A stretch of DNA of 64,000 nt from Eledone cirrhosa (lineage: Eukaryota). Location of the stretch: NCBI GenBank assembly GCA_964016885.1, contig OZ024760.1, positions 8,184,001 to 8,248,000 on the forward strand. The letters run 5' to 3'. Position numbers and translations under genes: made by a program. Position 1 is the first letter of the stretch, and every line of letters begins with the position of its first letter. Below are positions 29,551 to 56,439 of the stretch, piece after piece. A model generated the notes under the pieces. The model searched no databases. It saw only the letters and a program-made list of their open reading frames with translations, and had not been told where the DNA came from.

Positions 29551-29820
29551 TTTGCTTACATTTTATTATATTAAAATTGTTTAAGTTTATTTAATTTTCT
29601 GTGAATATGATGAAATTTTTTCCAATATCCTTTAGAAAATTTAGTTTGGAATCTTCATTGAAAGTGTTGTGCTTTTATCTTAACAATTTATAAATGAAGA
29701 GCAATTTCGGTATGGTCATGCTAAAAAACTATTGATTCTCACTATTTGGTTTAGGGAGGTAGTGTGAAAACAAAATAAGGTTTGTATTAAATACTAAGGG
29801 AAATAATCATATATGACTCG

Positions 29821-32396
29821 CCAGACAGTCCACACTGTAATGTGGCCGTGTAGGCAACACGGTAAAAACCTCCCAGCCCCACACTGTAAATGTGGTTGGT
29901 GTTAGGAAGGGCATCCAGCTGTAGAAAACCCGCCAGACAGTCCACGCTGTAATGTGGCCGTGTAGGCAACACGGTAAAAACCTCCCAGCCCCACACTGTA
30001 AATGTGGTTGGTGTTAGGAAGGGCATCCAGCTGTAGAAAACCCGCCAGACAGTCCACGCTGTAATGTGGCCGTGTAGGCAACACGGTAAAAACCTCCCAG
30101 CCCCACACTGTAAATGTGGTTGGTGTTAGGAAGGGCATCCAGCTGTAGAAAACCCGCCAGACAGTCCACGCTGTAATGTGGCCGTGTAGGCAACACGGTA
30201 AAAACCTCCCAGCCCCACACTGTAAATGTGGTTGGTGTTAGGAAGGGCATCCAGCTGTAGAAAACCCGCCAGACAGTCCACGCTGTAATGTGGCCGTGTA
30301 GGCAACACGGTAAAAACCTCCCAGCCCCACACTGTAAATGTGGTTGGTGTTAGGAAGGGCATCCAGCTGTAGAAAACCCGCCAGACAGTCCACGCTGTAA
30401 TGTGGCCGTGTAGGCAACACAGTAAAAACCTCCCAGCCCCACACTGTAAATGTGGTTGGTGTTAGGAAGGGCATCCAGCTGTAGAAAACCCGCCAGACAG
30501 TCCACGCTGTAATGTGGCCGTGTAGGCAACACGGTAAAAACCTCCCAGCCCCACACTGTAAATGTGGTTGGTGTTAGGAAGGGCATCCAGCTGTAGAAAA
30601 CCCGCCAGACAGTCCACGCTGTAATGTGGCCGTGTAGGCAACACGGTAAAAACCTCCCAGCCCCACACTGTAAATGTGGTTGGTGTTAGGAAGGGCATCC
30701 AGCTGTAGAAAACCCGCCAGACAGTCCACGCTGTAATGTGGCCGTGTAGGCAACACGGTAAAAACCTCCCAGCCCCACACTGTAAATGTGGTTGGTGTTA
30801 GGAAGGGCATCCAGCTGTAGAAAACCCGCCAGACAGTCCACGCTGTAATGTGGCCGTGTAGGCAACACGGTAAAAACCTCCCAGCCCCACACTGTAAATG
30901 TGGTTGGTGTTAGGAAGGGCATCCAGCTGTAGAAAACCCGCCAGACAGTCCACGCTGTAATGTGGCCGTGTAGGCAACACGGTAAAAACCTCCCAGCCCC
31001 ACACTGTAAATGTGGTTGGTGTTAGGAAGGGCATCCAGCTGTAGAAAACCCGCCAGACAGTCCACGCTGTAATGTGGCCGTGTAGGCAACACGGTAAAAA
31101 CCTCCCAGCCCCACACTGTAAATGTGGTTGGTGTTAGGAAGGGCATCCAGCTGTAGAAAACCCGCCAGACAGTCCACGCTGTAATGTGGCCGTGTAGGCA
31201 ACACGGTAAAAACCTCCCAGCCCCACACTGTAAATGTGGTTGGTGTTAGGAAGGGCATCCAGCTGTAGAAAACCCGCCAGACAGTCCACGCTGTAATGTG
31301 GCCGTGTAGGCAACACGGTAAAAACCTCCCAGCCCCACACTGTAAATGTGGTTGGTGTTAGGAAGGGCATCCAGCTGTAGAAAACCCGCCAGACAGTCCA
31401 CGCTGTAATGTGGCCGTGTAGGCAACACGGTAAAAACCTCCCAGCCCCACACTGTAAATGTGGTTGGTGTTAGGAAGGGCATCCAGCTGTAGAAAACCCG
31501 CCAGACAGTCCACGCTGTAATGTGGCCGTGTAGGCAACACAGTAAAAACCTCCCAGCCCCACACTGTAAATGTGGTTGGTGTTAGGAAGGGCATCCAGCT
31601 GTAGAAAACCCGCCAGACAGTCCACGCTGTAATGTGGCCGTGTAGGCAACACGGTAAAAACCTCCCAGCCCCACACTGTAAATGTGGTTGGTGTTAGGAA
31701 GGGCATCCAGCTGTAGAAAACCCGCCAGACAGTCCACGCTGTAATGTGGCCGTGTAGGCAACACGGTAAAAACCTCCCAGCCCCACACTGTAAATGTGGT
31801 TGGTGTTAGGAAGGGCATCCAGCTGTAGAAAACCCGCCAGACAGTCCACGCTGTAATGTGGCCGTGTAGGCAACACGGTAAAAACCTCCCAGCCCCACAC
31901 TGTAAATGTGGTTGGTGTTAGGAAGGGCATCCAGCTGTAGAAAACCCGCCAGACAGTCCACGCTGTAATGTGGCCGTGTAGGCAACACGGTAAAAACCTC
32001 CCAGCCCCACACTGTAAATGTGGTTGGTGTTAGGAAGGGCATCCAGCTGTAGAAAACCCGCCAGACAGTCCACGCTGTAATGTGGCCGTGTAGGCAACAC
32101 GGTAAAAACCTCCCAGCCCCACACTGTAAATGTGGTTGGTGTTAGGAAGGGCATCCAGCTGTAGAAAACCCGCCAGACAGTCCACGCTGTAATGTGGCCG
32201 TGTAGGCAACACGGTAAAAACCTCCCAGCCCCACACTGTAAATGTGGTTGGTGTTAGGAAGGGCATCCAGCTGTAGAAAACCCGCCAGACAGTCCACGCT
32301 GTAATGTGGCCGTGTAGGCAACACGGTAAAAACCTCCCAGCCCCACACTGTAAATGTGGTTGGTGTTAGGAAGGGCATCCAGCTGTAGAAAACCCG
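29821..32396. repeat. 112-bp tandem array, 23 near-identical copies, derived from a SINE-like element
   Basis: Period 112. A G>A variant recurs at 30421 and 31541 (10-unit spacing). The array runs directly into the element's 3' tail at 32397-32505. Confidence 0.95.
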
Positions 32397-32594
32397 CCAG
32401 ACAGTCCTATGCGAGCAAGACAACCACTCTTGCCTCAAGTGGGAAAACCCCCGTCCAAACCCATGCAAGCGTGGAACACGGACGCTAAACCCGATGATGA
32501 TGATGACCCTCCCAGGAATAATTGAAAAGAAGAAGAAGTAAAAGAAAGAAGAAGACGAAGAAGATGACAACAACACTGATGACAAGAATCTTAC

Positions 32595-32754
32595 CAATAT
32601 TTGATAGCTGTTCCACAGAGCTAGAGATGTTGATACATTCCTCAGCCATGGGTATTTCTAACTGAATCACAGAGAAGTCTTTACAACGTATTGTCAAAGT
32701 CCCACCAGCACCAGACAGCTTCTTCTCAACACTGTCAATACCGCGATGAAGTAA
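32595..32754 (-). CDS. MTMR9: MTMR9 coding exon 2
   Basis: LLHRGIDSVEKKLSGAGGTLTIRCKDFSVIQLEIPMAEECINISSSVEQLSNI; ttttcag / gtaag boundaries. Confidence 0.93.
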
Positions 32755-32964: not shown

Positions 32965-33111
32965 CCACAGTTCACTTTTGGATTCTTGTCTTGAAGAAAG
33001 AATTAGATGATGTCCTGTCACACACAGTGTACCTTCCAAAGACAACTCAAATGGTTTGTGAAGAACCACATTATCAACAGTCGGGGTGTTGATAAACTCA
33101 ACAAATTCCAT
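32965..33111 (-). CDS. MTMR9: MTMR9 coding exon 1
   Basis: MEFVEFINTPTVDNVVLHKPFELSLEGTLCVTGHHLILSSRQESKSELW, then donor GTAAG. An upstream acceptor (ttttcag, about 33145) implies a 5' UTR intron. Confidence 0.93.
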
Positions 33112-35187: not shown

Positions 35188-35251
35188 CAGAGAGAAAGAG
35201 AAAGAGAGAGAGATAAATATACACGGGTGTGTATGATTGTGTATAGAAGAT

Positions 35252-35637
35252 TATATTAATAAGAGGAATTCCAACTTTGTCTGATTTACTCGTTTTATTT
35301 ACAATCCTTTAACATTTATAATGGTATTATAATGAAATAGTATGGTAGAATATTAAATGTTAAGTGTTAATTGAACAAGTACTTTCATGCTTTCGCAATC
35401 TTCAGGTTCATAATGTGTGGTGACAGTCAAGTTTGCAATTTTCAACAGTTCAAAATTGCAAACTTGACTGTCACCACACATTATGAACCTGAAAATTGCG
35501 AAAGCATGAAAGTACTTGTTCAATTAACACTTAACATTTAATATTCTACCATACTATTTCATTATAATACCATTATAAATGTTAAAGGATTGTAAATAAA
35601 ACGAGTAAATCAGACAAAGTTGGAATTCCTCTTATTA

Positions 35638-35642
<5 letters not shown>
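35252..35642. repeat. 391-bp palindrome (191-bp arms, 9-nt spacer, one mismatch)
   Basis: 35252-35442 is the reverse complement of 35452-35642 except at 35400/35494. Confidence 0.95.
35372..35410 (-). ncRNA. minimal type-I hammerhead ribozyme-like motif
   Basis: UGAAC-CUGAAGA-U UGC GAAA GCA U-GAAA-GUAC-UU-GUUCA: 5-bp stem I, GNRA-capped stem II, palindromic stem III. Confidence 0.5.
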
Positions 35643-36035: not shown

Positions 36036-36452
36036 CAGTATATGAAAAGATACAGGACCCCGACGGCTGAGCTCCGGCCGTTTCGACAGCTAGATTCGAA
36101 CCACACCCTCTCTCTCTATATATATATATATTAACAATCGATATATATCGATTGTTAAACTTCTATCTAGCCCAACACAAAATGATTTACAAACGCACAA
36201 ATCAACAAAAAAAAAATGTTTTTCTTTTTTTTTTTATAATCATCTGAATAATTAATTCTATTAAAATGTTTCTTTTGTAAACCATATTCATAACACCAAC
36301 GGTGTTTTTACGTAGTTAAAATATTTTAATATATGTGTATGCATAATAATTAACACACACACACACACACATATATATGTGTGTGTATATATATATGAAA
36401 CATTCGGGACCCCGACGGCTGAGCTCCTGCCATTTCAACAGCTAGATCCGAA

Positions 36453-38850: not shown

Positions 38851-39418
38851 CACAGCATTGCCTCTGGGAATAGAGGATCCCTCAATTACAAATTTGCTGA
38901 ACTTGTATCATCATTCATCATTTCATTTTACGTCCACTTTTCCCTGCTTGCAAGGGCGGGACAGGAACTGATTCTGGCTTGATTTCTACAGCTGGATGCC
39001 CTTCCGAACACCAACCTCATTTACAGTGAGTGCTGGGTGCTTTTTTGCCGTGGCACCTCCACGACCACTTTTGCAGTGGAATGATAGGGACCCCAATCCC
39101 TATCATCTCATTTCTACAGCTGAGTAAACTGGAGCAATGTGAAATAAAGTGTTTTACTCAAGGAAACAACACATCACCCGGTCTGAGAATTGAACTCACA
39201 ACCTTTCGATTGCAAGGCCAATGCTCTAACCACTAAGCCATGTGCCTCCATTAGAAGTTAGAAATCAATATGTAATAGAGGGATCCTCCATCACCTCAGA
39301 CAATTTTGTCTCAAATACTGAAATTTCTTGCAAAGATTAAAAATGAATTTAAGAAGACAAGGTCTAGACATAAGCAAGATTTTAATTTCAAGTAAAAATA
39401 TAAAAATGCAAGCAGGAT

Positions 39419-39632: not shown

Positions 39633-40702
39633 TCTGTTGAGCCAAAGTCAAAGTAACATCATTGTTGTCATCAAAATATGGGCCCATGTTGTCAAGTTCT
39701 TTGCGGTAGGCCCTTGAAACTGATCACTGATCTGGGATCATGATTAGACAAACAACAACAACCTGAGACAACAACATTCTCATATGCAAGAAGAAGGTCT
39801 AAAATATACACAGCAGAATTCTCAACAAAAAGTATTTCTCATTATGAAAATTTGTCCAACTAGTGCCCCAGCATGGCCAGCAGGTGGGCTGCCATTTGCA
39901 TATAATAGTGAGAGATGGAGAGAGCGAGAGGGACGGAGGCAGTAACAATGGGAATTTGATTCTATTATATTCAGTGTTGTTAGGAAGTTTTTGTACAAAA
40001 CAGAAAGCAGAGGGGAAAGGAAAAAGGAGGGTGAAAAATATAAGAATTTAAAAAAAAAACTCCAAAAATAAAATATATATATGTATATGACTCTGGAATT
40101 TATTTAACCAGTCTTTTTCTTCTGTATTCCCACATATATCCTTATATCATCCTCATCATCATCATCAGATTAAAAATGTAGACTACTACTTCTTAGTTGG
40201 TTTCAACTCTGTCCACTGCTCTCAAGTCCCTCCACCGCGCATCTTGGTCCAACATTATCACCATGAGGTCCTGGACAGTCCAAAGTCCTTTGATCAAGTT
40301 GTCAATGTAGTTGTATCAGCATTTTCCTCTCCTTACAGCTCCATGAAATGGGTTCCAAAGGACTAATTTTGATGCTTCCAGTTCAGGGTGTCACACACAA
40401 TGACCAGATATGTGGAGCTATCTTTGCCTGATCTTTTCGCTGACTTTTGGCAGGTCTCTATAAAGGCATCTATTTGTCATATGAGACTCACAGAGGAGGT
40501 GATGAAAGAACGCGATGAGTGGAGAGATGCTGTGCTGAGAAAGGCCCGTCCAACCCATACAAGAGTAGAAAAACAGACATAAAAACAATGATGATGAAGA
40601 GCAGTGTGTCACACACGTTTCGTATTTAAAATATTCTTCTCCAGTGTGTTTCATTGTGTCTATTTCAGTGACTGTTAAAGATAAAAGATTTCCTCACGTA
40701 TT

Positions 40703-42370
40703 TCACAATAGAAGGTTATTATCTCCTGTGTCACTACATTTATGACCAATAAGATTACAATTAACAGAAAACGATTTCCCACATATTTCACAATGGAAAG
40801 GTTTTTCTCCTGTGTGACAACGTTTGTGGATTACAAGATTAGAATTCTGAGAAAAAGATTTCCCACATATTTCACAATCAAAAGGTTTTTCACCAGTGTG
40901 ACTACGAACATGTTTTACAAGATTAGAATTACTAGAGAAAGATTTCCCACATATTTCACAGTGGTAGGGTTTTTCACCTGTGTGAATTCTTTTATGAACT
41001 ACAAAAGACGATTTATGACTAAAAGATTTATCACATATTTCGCAAACATAAGGACTTTCTCCAGTGTGTTTTTTTGTGTGTCTTATTAAAGCACTTTGAT
41101 AGACAAAATATTCTCCACATATTTCACAGTGATATTTTTTTTCTCCAGTATGACTACGTTTATGACTTACTAGATAAGATCTATCAACAAATGATTTCCC
41201 ACATATTTCACAATGATACGGTTTCTCTCCAGAGTGTATTTTTTTGTGTCTATCTAAATCCCTATTTTTGATAAAAAATTTCCCACATATTTCACAATAA
41301 CATGGTTTGTCTCCTGTGTGACTATATTTGTGACCAATAAGATTACAATTAACAGAAAACGATTTCCCACATATTTCACAATGGAAAGGTTTTTCTCCTG
41401 TGTGACAACGTTTGTGGATTACAAGATTAGAATTCTGAGAAAAAGATTTCCCACATATTTCACAATGAAAAGGGTTTTCACCAGTGTGACTACGAACATG
41501 TTTTACAAGATTAGAATTACTAGTAAAAGATTTCCCACATATTTCACAGTGGTAGGGTTTTTCACCTGTGTGAATTCTTTTATGAACTACAAGAGATGAC
41601 TTATCATAGAAGCATTTATCACATATTTCACAAACATAAGGACTTTCTCCAGTATGTTTTCTTTTATGTCTTATTAAAGCACTTCGATAAACAAAATATT
41701 CCCCACATATTTCACAGTGATATGGTTTTTCTCCAGTATGACTACGTGTATGACTTACTAGATAAGATCTATCAACAAAGGATTTCCCACATATTTCACA
41801 ATGATATGGTTTTTCTCCACTGTGTATTTTTTTGTGTCTATTTAAATCACTGTTTTTGACAAAAGATTTCCCACATATTTCACAGTGACATGGTTTCTCT
41901 CCCGTGTGTTTATGTATGTGGGTTGCAAGTCTAGATTTGTCAACAAATGATTGCCCACATATTTCACAGTGAAATAGATTTTCCCCAGTGTGTATTTTTT
42001 TATGGATACCAAGATGGGAATTATTACTGTATGATTTTCCACATATTTCACAATGATAGGGTTTTTCTCCTGTGTGAGTTCGTTTGTGTCTTGTGAAAAG
42101 ACTGTTATAAACAAAAGACTTTCCACATATTTCACAGTGGAAAAGTTTGTCTTTAGTATGTTTGTGTTTGTGTGTGGAGATTTCATCTTCTGATGAGAAA
42201 GTTTTCCTACAAACCTCACAGCTATATTCAGGAATATTTCTGTGTAACGACCCTTGTTCAGGACATGTTTCACTAGGTAAAGGTTTCTTACCTCTGTATG
42301 TCTGTGTTACTGTTTCTATATTGGTAGAAACAGGTGTTATAGAAATGTCCAATTTTTTAATGCACTCCAT
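40703..42370 (-). CDS. C2H2 zinc-finger protein A (555 aa, 18 fingers, last incomplete)
   Basis: Tandem CEICGKSF..H..H fingers with TGEKP linkers. Single coding exon; acceptor at about 42387. Confidence 0.9.
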   Translation of the reverse strand: MECIKKLDISITPVSTNIETVTQTYRGKKPLPSETCPEQGSLHRNIPEYSCEVCRKTFSSEDEISTHKHKHTKDKLFHCEICGKSFVYNSLFTRHKRTHTGEKPYHCEICGKSYSNNSHLGIHKKIHTGENLFHCEICGQSFVDKSRLATHIHKHTGEKPCHCEICGKSFVKNSDLNRHKKIHSGEKPYHCEICGKSFVDRSYLVSHTRSHTGEKPYHCEICGEYFVYRSALIRHKRKHTGESPYVCEICDKCFYDKSSLVVHKRIHTGEKPYHCEICGKSFTSNSNLVKHVRSHTGENPFHCEICGKSFSQNSNLVIHKRCHTGEKPFHCEICGKSFSVNCNLIGHKYSHTGDKPCYCEICGKFFIKNRDLDRHKKIHSGEKPYHCEICGKSFVDRSYLVSHKRSHTGEKKYHCEICGEYFVYQSALIRHTKKHTGESPYVCEICDKSFSHKSSFVVHKRIHTGEKPYHCEICGKSFSSNSNLVKHVRSHTGEKPFDCEICGKSFSQNSNLVIHKRCHTGEKPFHCEICGKSFSVNCNLIGHKCSDTGDNNLLL

Positions 42371-46903: not shown

Positions 46904-47935
46904 TTATTTTTCTGTATCCATACAATTGTGTTTAGTTAAATGATGCTTCTGAGAGAAAGATTTACCACAGATATCACAGTGATATGGTTTCTCTCCTGTA
47001 TGAACACGTTGATGAATAGTTAAGTGACCAGCTCCAGAAAATGATTTACCACAGATGTCACATTGATATGGTTTTTCTCCAGTATGAATACGTTTGTGAG
47101 TAGTTAGTGTATCATTTCGAGAGAATGATTTACCACATATATCACAGTGGTATGGCCTCTCTCCTGTATGAGTGCGTAGGTGAATAGTTAAGCTACTTAA
47201 CAGAGAGAATGATTTACCACAGATATCACAGTTATGTGGCTTTTTTCCTATATGAATATGTAGGTGAGTATTTAATGTATCATTTCGAGAAAATGATTTA
47301 TCACATATATGACAGAGGTATGGCTTCTCTCCTGTATGAATACGTTCGTGAATAGTTAAGCTACTTAACACTGAAAAAGATCTACCACAGATATCGCAGA
47401 TATGTGGCTTTTCTCCTGTATGAATACGTTGGTGACTAATTAAAGAACCTTTTTGAGAGAATGATTTATCACAGATATCACATTGATATGGCTTTTCTCC
47501 TGTATGAATGTATTTGTGATTTGTTAAGTTACAAGACAAAGAAAATGATTTTCCACAGATATCACAGTGATATGGTTTCTCACCTGTATGAATACGTTTA
47601 TGAGTAGTTAAGTTAAATGACTGAGAGAATGATTTACCACAGATATCACAGTGATATGGTTTTTCTCCAGTATGAACACGCTTGTGATTAATTAAATTAC
47701 TTGTTACAGAAAATGATTTACCACAGATATCACAGTGATATGGCCTCTCTCCTGTATGAATACGTTTGTGTGTAGTAAAGTCACTGTTTCCAGGGAATGA
47801 CTTACTACAGATATCACAGTGATAAAGTATTTCACCTGTGTGAGTACGTTTGTGTGTAGTAAAGTCACTGTTTCCAGAGAATGATTTACCACAGATGTCA
47901 CAGTTGTATGATGCTTTTTCTATAACTTTTGACAT
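46904..47935 (-). CDS. C2H2 zinc-finger protein B (343 aa, 12 fingers)
   Basis: ATG of [17 protein letters not shown] at 47935; tandem CDICGKSF fingers; acceptor atttcag at about 48057. Confidence 0.88.
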
Positions 47936-51935: not shown

Positions 51936-52092
51936 ATACGATATTAACAAATGGAAACTATATTTATAAAACTGATCTATATTATATTTTATCTGATGAA
52001 AGCACACCATAATTTAATTTGGTGTCCTTGAAATATGTATAATGAAATAAATATGGTTTTATAAATATAGTTTCCATTTGTTAATATCGTAT
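51936..52092 (+). mobile_element. 157-bp element with perfect 37-bp TIRs enclosing a hammerhead-like core
   Basis: TIRs at 51936-51972 and 52056-52092; CTGATGA at 51993, 9/10-bp stem II, GAAA at 52030. Confidence 0.6.
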
Positions 52093-53020: not shown

Positions 53021-55879
53021 TTATTTTTCTGTATCAATACAATTGTGTTTAGTTAAATGATGTTTCTGAGAGAAAGATTTACTACAGATATCACAGTGAT
53101 ATGGTTTCTCTCCTGTATGAATACGTAGGTGAATAGTTAGTACATTATTTTGAGAGAATGATTTACCACATATGTCACAGTGGTATGGCTTCTCTCCTGT
53201 ATGAATACGTTGGTGAATAGTTAAGCTACTTAACACAGAGAATGATTTCCCACAAATATCACAGTTATGTGGCTTTTCTCCTGTATGAATACGTAGGTGA
53301 ATAATTAAAGACCATTTTAGAGAAAATGATTTACCACAGATATCACAGTGATATGGCTTTTCTCCTGTATGAATGTGTTGGTGACTAATTAAATGCCATT
53401 TTTGAGGGAATGATTTACCACATATATCACAGTGATATGGTTTCTCTCCTGTATGAATACGTTTGTGAGTAGTTAGTGTATTATTTCGAGAGAATGATTC
53501 CCCACATATATCACAGTGGTATGGTTTCTCTCCTGTATGAATGCGTTTGTGTTCATTTATGTGACCCATTTGAGAGAATGATTTACCACAGACGTCACAG
53601 CGATATGGCTTTTTCCCTGTATGGATATTTTTGTGTTTAGATAAGCTGCTACTATAAGAGAATGATTTACCACAGATATCACAGTTATGTGCTTTTTCTC
53701 CTCTACGTATACATTTGTGAGTAATTAATCTACTTAACACAGAGAATGATTTACGACAGATATCACAGTTATGTGCCTTTTCTCCTCTACGTATACATTT
53801 GTGAGTAATTAATCCACTTAACACAGAGAATGATTTACCACAGATACCACAGACATGTGGTTTTTCTCCTGCATGAATATGTTGGTGACTAATTAAATGC
53901 CATTTTTGAGAGAATGATTTACCACAGATATCACAGAGATATGGTTTCTCTCCTGTATGAATACGTTTGTGAGTAGTGAGTGCATTATTTCGAGAGAATG
54001 ATTTACCACAGATATCACAGTGGAATGGTGTCTCTCCTGTATGAATATATTTGTGGCTACTTAGGCTACATGACTGAGAGAATGATTTACCACAGATATC
54101 ACAGTGGAATGGTTTCTCTCCAGTATGAACACGTTTGTGAATAATTAAATGACTTGTTTCAGAAAATGATTTACCACAGATATTACAACAAAATGGCTTC
54201 TCTCCTGTGTGAATGCGTTTGTGTCTATTTAAGTCACCACTCGTCGTGAAGGATTTACCACAGATGTCACAGTGATATGGCTTCTCTCCTGTATGAGAAC
54301 GTTTGTGTATTATTAAGCTGCTATTCTCAGAGAATGATGAACCGCAGATGTCACAGTGATATGGTTTCTCACCAGTATGAATACGATTATGTTTAGTTAA
54401 GCTGCTACTGTGAGAGAATGATTTACCACAGATATCACAGTGATAAATTATCTCTCCTGTATGAATACGTTTGTGTGTAGTAAGTTCACTGTTTCTAGAG
54501 AATGATTTACCACAGATATCACAATGATAAGGCATCTCTCCTGTATGAGTACGTTTGTGTGTAGTAAAGTCACTGTCTCCAGAGAATGATTTACCACAGA
54601 TATCACAGTGATAAAGCATCTCTCCTGTATGAGTATGTTTGTGTGTAGTAAGTTCACTGTTTCCAGAGAATGATTTACCACAGATGTCACATTGATATGG
54701 TTTTTCTCCTGTATGAGTACATTTGTGAGTAGTCAGTTTATTTTTTTTAGAGAATGATTTACCACATATATCACAGTGGAATGGCTTCTCTCCTGTATGA
54801 ATGATTTTATGTTCAGTTAAGTTACTATTATGAGAGAATGATTTACCACATATATCACAGTGATATGGCTTCTCTCCTGTATGAATACGTTTGTGAGTAG
54901 TTAGTGTATTATTTCGAGAGAATGATTCACCACATATATCACAGTGGTATGGTTTCTCTCCTGTATGAGTGCGTTTGTGTTCATTTATGTGACCTATTTG
55001 AGAGAATGATTTACCACAGACGTCACAGCGATATGGCTTTTTCCCTGTATGGATACTTTTGTGTTTAGATAAGCTGCTACTATAAGAGAATGATTTACCA
55101 CAGATATCACAGTTATGTGCTTTTTCTCCTCTACGTATACATTTGTGAGTAATTAATCTACTTAACACAGAGAATGATTTACCACAGATATCACAGTTAT
55201 GTGCTTTTTCTCCTCTACGTATACATTTGTGAGTAATTAATCTACTTAACACAGAGAATGATTTACCACAGATACCACAGACATGTGGTTTTTCTCCTGC
55301 ATGAATATGTTGGTGACTAATTAAATGACATTTTTGAGGGAATGATTTACCACAGATATCACAGGGATATGGTTTCTCTCCTGTATGAATACATTTGTGA
55401 GTAGTGAGTGCATTATTTCGAGAGAATGATTTATCACAGATATCACAGTGGAATGGTTTCTCTCCAGTATGAACACGTTTGTGAATAATTAAATGACTTG
55501 TTTCAGAAAAGGATTTACCACAGATATTACAACAAAATGGCTTCTCTCCTGTGTGAATGCGTTTGTGTCTATTTAAGTCACCACTCGTCGTGAATGATTT
55601 ACCACAGATGTCACAGTGATATGGCTTCTCTCCTGTATGAGAACGTTTGTGTATTATTAAGCTGCTATTCTCAGAGAATGATGAACCGCAGATGTCACAG
55701 TGATATGGTTTCTCACCAGTATGAATACGATTATGTTTAGTTAAGCTGCTACTGTGAGAGAATGATTTACCACAGATATCACAGTGATAAATTATCTCTC
55801 CTTTGTGAATACGTTTGTGTGTAGTAAGTTCACTCTTTCTAGAGAATGATTTACCACAGATATCACAGTGATAAGGCAT
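53021..55879 (-). CDS. C2H2 zinc-finger protein C (952 aa, 34 fingers); ancestral start at 55984 is blocked by an in-frame TAA
   Basis: Long intact finger array, paralogous to gene B including 5' and 3' flanks. Confidence 0.8.
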
Positions 55880-56439
55880 CTCTCCTGTCTGAGTACGTTT
55901 GTGTATAGTAAAGTCACTGTTTCCAGAGAATGATTTACCACAGATGTCACAGTTGTATTATGCTTTTTCTATAACTTTTGACATTTTTTTTACAGGAAAA
56001 AACTATCAATCAATTACGTTTTCCCCATAATTCATTCTTTGATGATTTTTACTTCTGTCAACAATATATGGATATTTTTCTTGGTTTTGTTTATATAAGG
56101 TATTCTGAAATAATAAAGAAACATTATGAGATATAGAGATTATTTAAAAACTAAAGATACAATGGTGAACATTTTACTACATTTCCTTTTTGATAAACTA
56201 CAGATATAAATATTGAAACTTTACACATAAATATTTTACTATATAGACATATATATATTCATCTTTACAGATATAAATATTTTACTATATAGACATATAT
56301 AGATATTTATTTTTACAGATATAAATATTTTACTTTACAGATATAAATATCTAACATTAGAGACATATATATTTAACTTTACTTTTTAATTTGTTTCTTT
56401 ATACAAGTTTGTGGGAAGTCTACATATTTGTAACGTATA

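What the first reader, a model, noticed from the sequence alone, without database searches (positions are those of the whole stretch)
35252..35642. 391-bp palindrome carrying inverted hammerhead motifs; its single mismatch hits catalytic G8
Seen: the 191-bp arms are identical except at 35400/35494. Each arm holds a minimal type-I hammerhead layout: 5-bp stem I UGAAC/GUUCA, core, GAAA-capped stem II, GAAA, palindromic stem III AGUACU, and a CUU cleavage triplet. The minus-strand copy (35372-35410) has the core CUGAAGA. The plus-strand copy (35484-35522) has CUGAAAA, a G8A change. Established: G8 is essential for catalysis; Penelope pLTRs carry minimal hammerheads with palindromic stem III that act as dimers, and often form inverted duplications. 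Inference: this is a young PLE-derived foldback with one possibly live and one dead ribozyme. It lies about 2 kb upstream of the MTMR9 ATG, possibly in a 5' UTR intron. On the MTMR9 sense strand the mismatch is a G-U pair, giving a fully paired 191-bp dsRNA (ADAR or endo-siRNA substrate) that would sequester the ribozyme unless unwound.
Basis: partly seen in the sequence, partly recalled or inferred. Interest (0 to 1): 0.75.

Follow-up and report, generated by a model that had tools for sequence, protein, structure and literature searches.

The report
Penelope retroelement back-to-back stub with hammerheads
This mirror-image DNA is one of thousands of copies of the end of a Penelope-type jumping gene, many of them back to back, and its G8 change occurs at an ordinary mutation rate; more interesting, a few percent of the family's copies begin at the predicted self-cutting site, which likely records the RNA cutting itself in the animal.

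Summary
The palindrome and both hammerhead motifs are real. The insertion is larger than reported (35203-35642): the left arm has an extra ~45-nt tail. It is two head-to-head copies of the pLTR end of a high-copy Penelope-like element (RT + GIY-YIG, Neptune-type linker; at least 7,245 arms in the genome) inserted in (TA)n. Arms start 31 nt behind a TATA box, at the likely transcription start; 25 of 27 sampled arm pairs have exactly one tail. G8 is the family state (5,446 exact copies); G8A (50) is as common as a G5A control (46), so the mismatch is background. No RNA data support a role for the MTMR gene. The structure class is published, and this scan noted it before on other DNA of this genome. 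The part I did not find in the papers I read: about 3% of family copies start at +71 to +74, with a sharp upstream edge at the predicted cut site (+72): about 90 and 67 junctions against 5 to 25 at four control positions. That may be a genomic record of in vivo cleavage, but a second family shows no such peak and a micro-hairpin or second start site could explain it.

The parts
35203..35449 (-). Tailed arm: pLTR of the Penelope-like element from the likely transcription start (about -2) to the tail end (+246)
   Evidence: 98.8% to the 3' end of natural full-length copy L032 over 247 nt
35203..35251 (-). ~45-50-nt tail, on this arm only; runs into (GA)n/(TA)n
   Evidence: exactly one tail in 25 of 27 arm pairs
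35372..35410 (-). Minimal type I hammerhead motif with the family core CUGAAGA, U10.1-U11.1, palindromic stem III AGUACU; predicted cut between 35377 and 35376
   Evidence: 5,446 exact 32-mer copies in the genome
35445..35449 (.). Junction: both arms reach the ACAGT start motif and overlap by 5 nt with a central mismatch
   Evidence: sequence; centre reads T on the tailed arm in 18 and A in 11 typed junctions
35445..35642 (+). Untailed arm, -2 to +196, ending in (TA)n; carries both derived changes (35451 and 35494)
35484..35522 (+). Hammerhead motif with G8A (35494), predicted inactive
   Evidence: G8A at background rate
32965..33111 (-). First coding exon of an MTMR6-9 family gene (context, not part of the element)
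   Evidence: PF21098 E 0.039; ATG and GT donor visible
32593..32751 (-). Second coding exon of the same gene (context)
   Evidence: PF21098 E 5.2e-8; PDB MTMR6 E 0.0025

Best explanation
This is a 440-bp insertion of a high-copy Penelope-like retroelement, made of two head-to-head copies of its pLTR end, likely formed when both strands of a cut (TA)n target each primed a cDNA on the element's RNA. One cDNA would start at the tail end (+241 to +246), the other at +196; both would run to the RNA's 5' end (inferred start 31 nt behind a TATA box) and be joined through the 5-nt near-palindrome ACWGT there. The G8A change is an ordinary substitution in one arm. At this locus the hammerhead is predicted to be inert: the TATA box is lost, each strand has one sense motif only, and a read-through RNA would make the complementary arm first and bury the motif in about 190 bp of duplex. 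Family-wide the motif looks constrained, and a minority of templates (about 3%) were probably cut by it.
For: Shown: the arm is the 3' end of elements with RT and GIY-YIG and a C-X4-C-X2-C linker. Copy number at least 7,245. 57 of 99 sampled arms start at -3 to +10, 15 of them at -2, none between -4 and -14; TATA-to-start distance 31 nt in 57 of 62 copies. 25 of 27 diverging pairs have one tail, including an 8.7-kb palindrome of two near-full elements. Arms of a pair are closer (3.0%) than arms of different pairs (5.3%) and agree at 91 of 101 diagnostic sites, with 10 discordant: mostly one source, sometimes perhaps two. Centre base A or T on the tailed arm (11 vs 18) fits annealing of two ends. 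In vitro, a PLE protein cuts and extends both target strands and starts RT at two sites that bound the tail (PMC11167929, parts 1-2 of 4 read). G8A 50, G5A 46, G8 5,446 (p=0.76). Minor-allele frequency 1.5% inside the motif vs 4.3% outside.
Against: The two-primer mechanism is inferred from ends, not observed; PMC3846280 (passages) proposes self-priming instead, and fold-back junctions are common here (11 of 30 at +71/72, 20 of 30 at +73/74). The start site has no RNA support. D. virilis Penelope has an internal, TATA-less promoter (PMC2377424, passages), so loss of TATA may not silence a stub. No tree was built for the clade. No read or contig spans this locus from flank to flank.
Confidence: 0.8

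Rival explanations
1. Same element, but the second arm is made by snap-back (self-priming) of a single cDNA rather than by a second primer.
For: Fold-back junctions at natural micro-hairpins are frequent; arms share private variants (91 of 101 sites); proposed in PMC3846280.
Against: Does not by itself explain why the second arm ends at the fixed point +196, the mixed centre base, unequal arms with unrelated 5' ends, or discordant haplotypes in some pairs.
Confidence: 0.15
2. This copy regulates the MTMR gene, either as a long dsRNA in its 5' UTR intron or as an outward promoter whose intact hammerhead points toward the gene.
For: The intact motif is on the gene's strand, 2.3 kb upstream; 193-pair hairpin predicted; a pyrimidine tract and CAG 33 nt before the ATG suggest an upstream non-coding exon; Penelope pLTRs can drive downstream genes (PMC2377424).
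Against: The copy is young and one of thousands; G8A is background; TATA is absent; no sign of selection at this locus was found.
Confidence: 0.04
3. Assembly fold-back artefact.
For: No record spans the locus end to end.
Against: Arms differ at two sites and by a tail; sister palindromes have varied junctions; short-read contigs cross such centres (record 14, 35391-35493; it may come from another copy).
Confidence: 0.01

Closest known systems
Endonuclease-bearing Penelope-like elements, Neptune type (PMC8557442, passages read; PMC3846280, passages read)
   Same: RT with C-terminal GIY-YIG, CX2-5CxxC linker, partial tandems, inverted 5'-truncated copy at the 5' end, tail on one end, microsatellite targets, hammerhead in the pLTR.
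   Different: Most copies are pLTR-only stubs that begin at one fixed point; the tail is 45-50 nt rather than 30-40; the coding region is split into two overlapping frames at a T6A site; TATA-type rather than internal promoter (inferred).
[quoted passage not shown]
   Same: Type I, 5-bp helix I, palindromic helix III for dimer folding; that paper already reports pairs of motifs 100-700 bp apart on opposite strands.
   Different: [quoted passage not shown]
PAc (Poseidon, Anolis) in vitro system (PMC11167929, parts 1-2 of 4 read)
   Same: Two RT start sites bounding the tail; both target strands cut and extended; AT-rich targets.
   Different: For PAc no RNA-seq reads ended at the hammerhead site and uncut RNA was the main template; here uncut templates also dominate, but about 3% of copies start at the site.
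Metazoan non-LTR retrozymes (PMC7229834, passages; 10.64898/2026.07.22.740005, part 1 of 5)
   Same: Non-coding, hammerhead-bearing, PLE-linked repeats.
   Different: Retrozymes are head-to-tail arrays of monomers from cut site to cut site with canonical hammerheads; this is a head-to-head pair identical to the end of an autonomous element.

Membership tests
EN+ Penelope-like element (Neptune type) | RT followed by C-terminal GIY-YIG endonuclease in the parent element | tested here: met
   RVT_1 E 2.9e-6 (27.6 bits, under the 29.6 cut-off) and GIY-YIG E 3.3e-6 (over cut-off) in L157
EN+ Penelope-like element (Neptune type) | CX2-5CxxC linker before the endonuclease, and CCHH in it | tested here: met
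   read by eye in the translations
EN+ Penelope-like element (Neptune type) | pLTR formed by partial or full tandems | tested here: met
   pLTR sequence directly upstream of the ORF start in most of 93 copies checked; three-unit tandem L224-L226
EN+ Penelope-like element (Neptune type) | Inverted 5'-truncated partner and a tail on one end | tested here: met
   25 of 27 pairs; window copy
EN+ Penelope-like element (Neptune type) | Microsatellite target | tested here: met
   (TA)n or (GA)n at both ends of the window copy and of the copies printed
EN+ Penelope-like element (Neptune type) | Single ORF | tested here: not met
   11 of 11 distinct copies keep a frame change at T6A; PMC8557442 Fig. 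1 legend lists an optional frameshift for PLEs, clade not visible in the text
EN+ Penelope-like element (Neptune type) | Placement in the Neptune group by RT phylogeny | not tested
   no tree built; Neptune vs Nematis rests on motifs
Minimal type I hammerhead ribozyme | Core CUGANGA, GAAA, UH | tested here: met
   left arm met; right arm has A8
Minimal type I hammerhead ribozyme | Helices I and II, palindromic helix III | tested here: met
   the folds are not better than shuffles (z -0.28); same layout with other stem sequences in other families of this genome
Minimal type I hammerhead ribozyme | G10.1-C11.1 pair | tested here: not met
   U-U here; reported as a natural variant in PMC3088659; U-U also in two other families
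Minimal type I hammerhead ribozyme | Match to an Rfam hammerhead model | tested here: not met
   none among 55 matches at E<=10
Minimal type I hammerhead ribozyme | Self-cleavage after H17 | tested here: inconclusive
   indirect only: junction peak at +71 to +74; no peak in a second family
Non-LTR retrozyme | Head-to-tail tandem monomers with a hammerhead in each | tested here: not met
   head-to-head pair; no tandem array at these coordinates
MITE / foldback DNA transposon | Symmetric terminal inverted repeats of a DNA transposon | tested here: not met
   ends are asymmetric and equal the 3' end of a retroelement

The most novel reading that the evidence does not exclude
The genome preserves a record of in vivo self-cleavage by a minimal Penelope hammerhead: the family's cDNAs stop at two RNA 5' ends, the transcription start and, in about 3% of copies, the ribozyme cut site, including near-full-length copies and an 8.7-kb palindrome centred on it. 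The motif would thus be a weak, occasional cutter that transposition tolerates but does not need.
Probability: 0.5. Interest if true: 0.6.

Novelty: new member of a known kind. Interest (0 to 1): 0.35.

Why it matters
The locus itself is ordinary. The family is useful because thousands of young copies map both RT start sites, the transcription start and a second 5' end at the hammerhead cut site to within 1-2 nt. The role of hammerheads in endonuclease-bearing PLEs is described as unclear (PMC8557442) and lacked in vivo support in PMC4209133 and PMC11167929; this family offers a 39-nt motif, a predicted cut position and a predicted cut fraction that one RNA-end experiment can test.

Tried and rejected
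1) 'All full-length copies begin at the cut site' (suggested by L105/L158 and L150): rejected; 7 of 93 ORF-start arms checked (93 of 139 found) end at +70 to +74, 11 near the start site, many run further upstream. 2) 'The cut-site peak is general to hammerhead families in this genome': not supported; in a second family junction estimates were about 32, 39 and 25 at -5/-4, the cut site and +7/+8 (38, 51, 33 hits; 25, 23, 23 of 30 were junctions; the last pattern covers one subfamily only). 3) Single-mismatch test at +71: 41 hits, 8 of 30 true junctions; too narrow, as it missed one haplotype and junctions with T at +71. 4) One search was meant as a control but was off by one base and matched the unchanged sequence (6,576 hits); used only as a rough denominator and repeated. 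5) Rfam gave only hairpin-driven microRNA matches far below gathering scores. 6) A strict hammerhead scan missed this motif because of the U-U pair; a second scan printed nothing. 7) No RNA holder listed. 8) RNA cofold of two motifs did not return the double-hammerhead; uninformative. 9) The Terminon paper (Arkhipova 2017) was not held, so I could not check whether it links 5' or 3' ends to hammerhead cleavage. 10) The first centre-base count returned nothing through a regex error and was redone.

Full report
Numbering. Positions in the element are given relative to the A at the palindrome centre (+1 = A of AGTTG); the predicted hammerhead cut lies between +71 and +72. The genome is a 3.0-Gb animal assembly; I did not try to identify it.

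1. Observation. The inverted repeat has arms 35252-35446 and 35448-35642 with mismatches at 35400/35494 and 35443/35451. Both hammerhead layouts are there. Stem II opens with U-U rather than G-C; PMC3088659 (passages) reports natural hammerheads with U10.1-U11.1 and says this mismatch supports more activity than other mispairs. No Rfam hammerhead model matches, and the 39-nt motif folds no better than shuffles, as expected of a minimal motif.

2. It is the end of a Penelope-like element. One arm finds 686 candidates in the genome, 40 scored. Flanking DNA of several hits carries an RT and GIY-YIG frame upstream of the arm; Pfam gives RVT_1 (E 2.9e-6, just under the cut-off) and GIY-YIG, and the translation shows a C-X4-C-X2-C linker, the mark of Neptune and Nematis elements in PMC8557442 (passages). 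No tree was built. Exact 25- to 32-mers count 5,446, 6,576 and 7,245 copies.

3. Anatomy of the family. I took the first 100 places (contig C1, 0.6-56 Mb only), 99 distinct arms. 57 start at -3 to +10 (15 at -2; none from -4 to -14), 18 run 40 nt or more upstream, 1 starts at -15 and 23 start between +13 and +158. In copies that keep upstream DNA a TATA box lies 31 nt before the A at -2 in 57 of 62, so -2 is the likely transcription start (inferred). Of 27 diverging arm pairs 25 have exactly one tail. The same rule holds for an 8.7-kb palindrome of two near-full elements. In 16 short pairs the two arms are 3.0% apart (14 pairs long enough) against 5.3% between pairs, and agree at 91 of 101 diagnostic sites; the window's pair, at 2 differences in 195, is among the youngest. 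Where both arms reach the start motif, the centre base on the tailed arm is T in 18 and A in 11 junctions, 6 untyped, as expected if two cDNA ends anneal through ACWGT with a central mismatch. PMC11167929 (parts 1-2 of 4) shows in vitro that a PLE protein cuts and extends both target strands and starts RT at two sites that bound the tail; this is the model I adopt. Inverted partners and one-sided tails are described as typical in PMC8557442 and PMC3846280 (passages), and opposite-strand pairs of minimal hammerheads 100-700 bp apart in PMC4209133.

4. G8A is background. Exact motif with G8: 5,446; with A8: 50; with the control change G5A: 46 (p=0.76). Of 30 A8 loci, 8 have an A/G pair like the window's, 1 an A/A pair and 21 a single readable motif. 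The motif as a whole looks constrained at the level of source elements: minor-allele frequency 1.5% at +38 to +76 against 4.3% outside, and no common lineage variant falls inside it (99 arms, suggestive only).

5. This locus. The neighbouring exons match the MTMR6-9 GRAM domain; the ATG is 2.1 kb from the element. In a head-to-head pair any read-through RNA makes the antisense arm first, and the duplex (-307.8 kcal/mol) outweighs the motif (-4.2); each strand has one sense motif, so there is no partner in cis. The TATA box is lost. The ribozyme here is therefore predicted to be inert whatever its G8 state. D. virilis Penelope has an internal promoter (PMC2377424, passages), so transcription from the centre cannot be excluded. 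Short-read contigs cross palindrome centres of this family, but none spans this locus.

6. A second 5' end at the cut site. Two near-full insertions began at +71/72. The strong form, that all full copies start there, failed: 7 of 93 ORF-start arms checked, of 139 found. I then counted junctions genome-wide with patterns that demand two mismatches just upstream of an intact stretch. Hits, and junctions among those inspected: +65/66, 7 (5 of 7); +69/70, 16 (8 of 16); +71/72, 100 (27 of 30; the script says 28, one is a small deletion); +73/74, 72 (28 of 30); +79/80, 11 (8 of 11); +86/87, 158 hits, of which 33 places precede one tandem array on C21 that I dropped (23 of 30; over the same contigs +71/72 has 91). 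The peak has a sharp upstream edge and a downstream tail, like the start-site peak, and occurs in both main haplotypes. Many of these are fold-backs at the 4-bp micro-hairpin TGTT/AACA (11 of 30 and 20 of 30). Without them and without duplicates about 43 and 19 junctions remain, against 4, 3, 7 and about 14 at the controls (scaled). The patterns differ in how easily flanks pass the filter, so ratios are rough. In the unbiased sample 3 of 99 arms start at +69 to +74.

Against cleavage: about 80 of the 100 hits have T at +71 (read from the list), which fits an untemplated A or microhomology but also an end at +71; T+71/G+72 could be a second start site; RT could pause at the motif; and a second hammerhead family of this genome shows no peak at its cut site (about 32, 39, 25). 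I put cleavage at 0.5.

7. What is in print. [quoted passage not shown] I could not read Arkhipova 2017 and opened no supplements, where such an observation could stand. Earlier notes of this scan describe the same kind of stub and the two-ended rule in other families of this genome; a search by this arm's sequence found none.

8. Verdict. A real, ordinary product of a known class: new member of a known kind, interest 0.35, carried mainly by the cut-site peak.

Noticed in passing
L157:1680-5261; also L032, L150, L158, L218, L224, L235, L237, L239, L241, L243, L244: The parent element has a 449-aa ORF1 and a 775-aa RT-EN frame that overlap in the -1 frame at a T TTT TTA heptamer, kept in 11 of 11 distinct copies: a candidate programmed -1 frameshift; no strong hairpin predicted behind it. 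Optional frameshifts are mentioned for PLEs in PMC8557442 Fig. 1.
   Followed up: partly
G000:C1:21872000-21880700 (L156, L157): 8.7-kb palindrome of two near-full elements, 99.9% alike over the 3 kb compared directly, centred on the predicted cut site, one arm tailed and one not.
   Followed up: yes
L221, L223, L236, L239, L244, L248, L271, L279, L285, L290: 10 of 92 ORF-start arms end at -32 to -37, just before the TATA box of one subfamily, often with a short duplication; unexplained third 5' end.
   Followed up: no
window 51939-52090: A second, unrelated hammerhead-bearing stub (core CTGATGA at 51993) between ~35-nt inverted arms next to (TA)n.
   Followed up: no
L044, L170, L325, L338, L221 and others: At least five other hammerhead families with palindromic stem III lie by chance in the fetched loci; two share the U10.1-U11.1 opening.
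   Followed up: partly
G000:C21:2464927-2470884 and beyond: A ~52-55-bp satellite built from a piece of this pLTR (+87 onward), 67 units listed and more unlisted.
   Followed up: no
window 29819-32407: 112-bp tandem array, 23 units at 99% identity, inside an intron of the MTMR gene; a 79% copy of the unit lies at 38973-39071.
   Followed up: no
window 13244-21592: 8.3-kb purine-only 25-bp satellite, about 342 units.
   Followed up: no
window 40683-42152, 46952-47904, 53067-55953: 84-bp-period arrays typical of C2H2 zinc-finger exons, on the minus strand; identity from the period and recall, not tested.
   Followed up: no
window 9967-10464: Four units of a 122-bp self-complementary repeat in (TA)n; pieces of the same family at about 36054-36100 and 36405-36452.
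   Followed up: no
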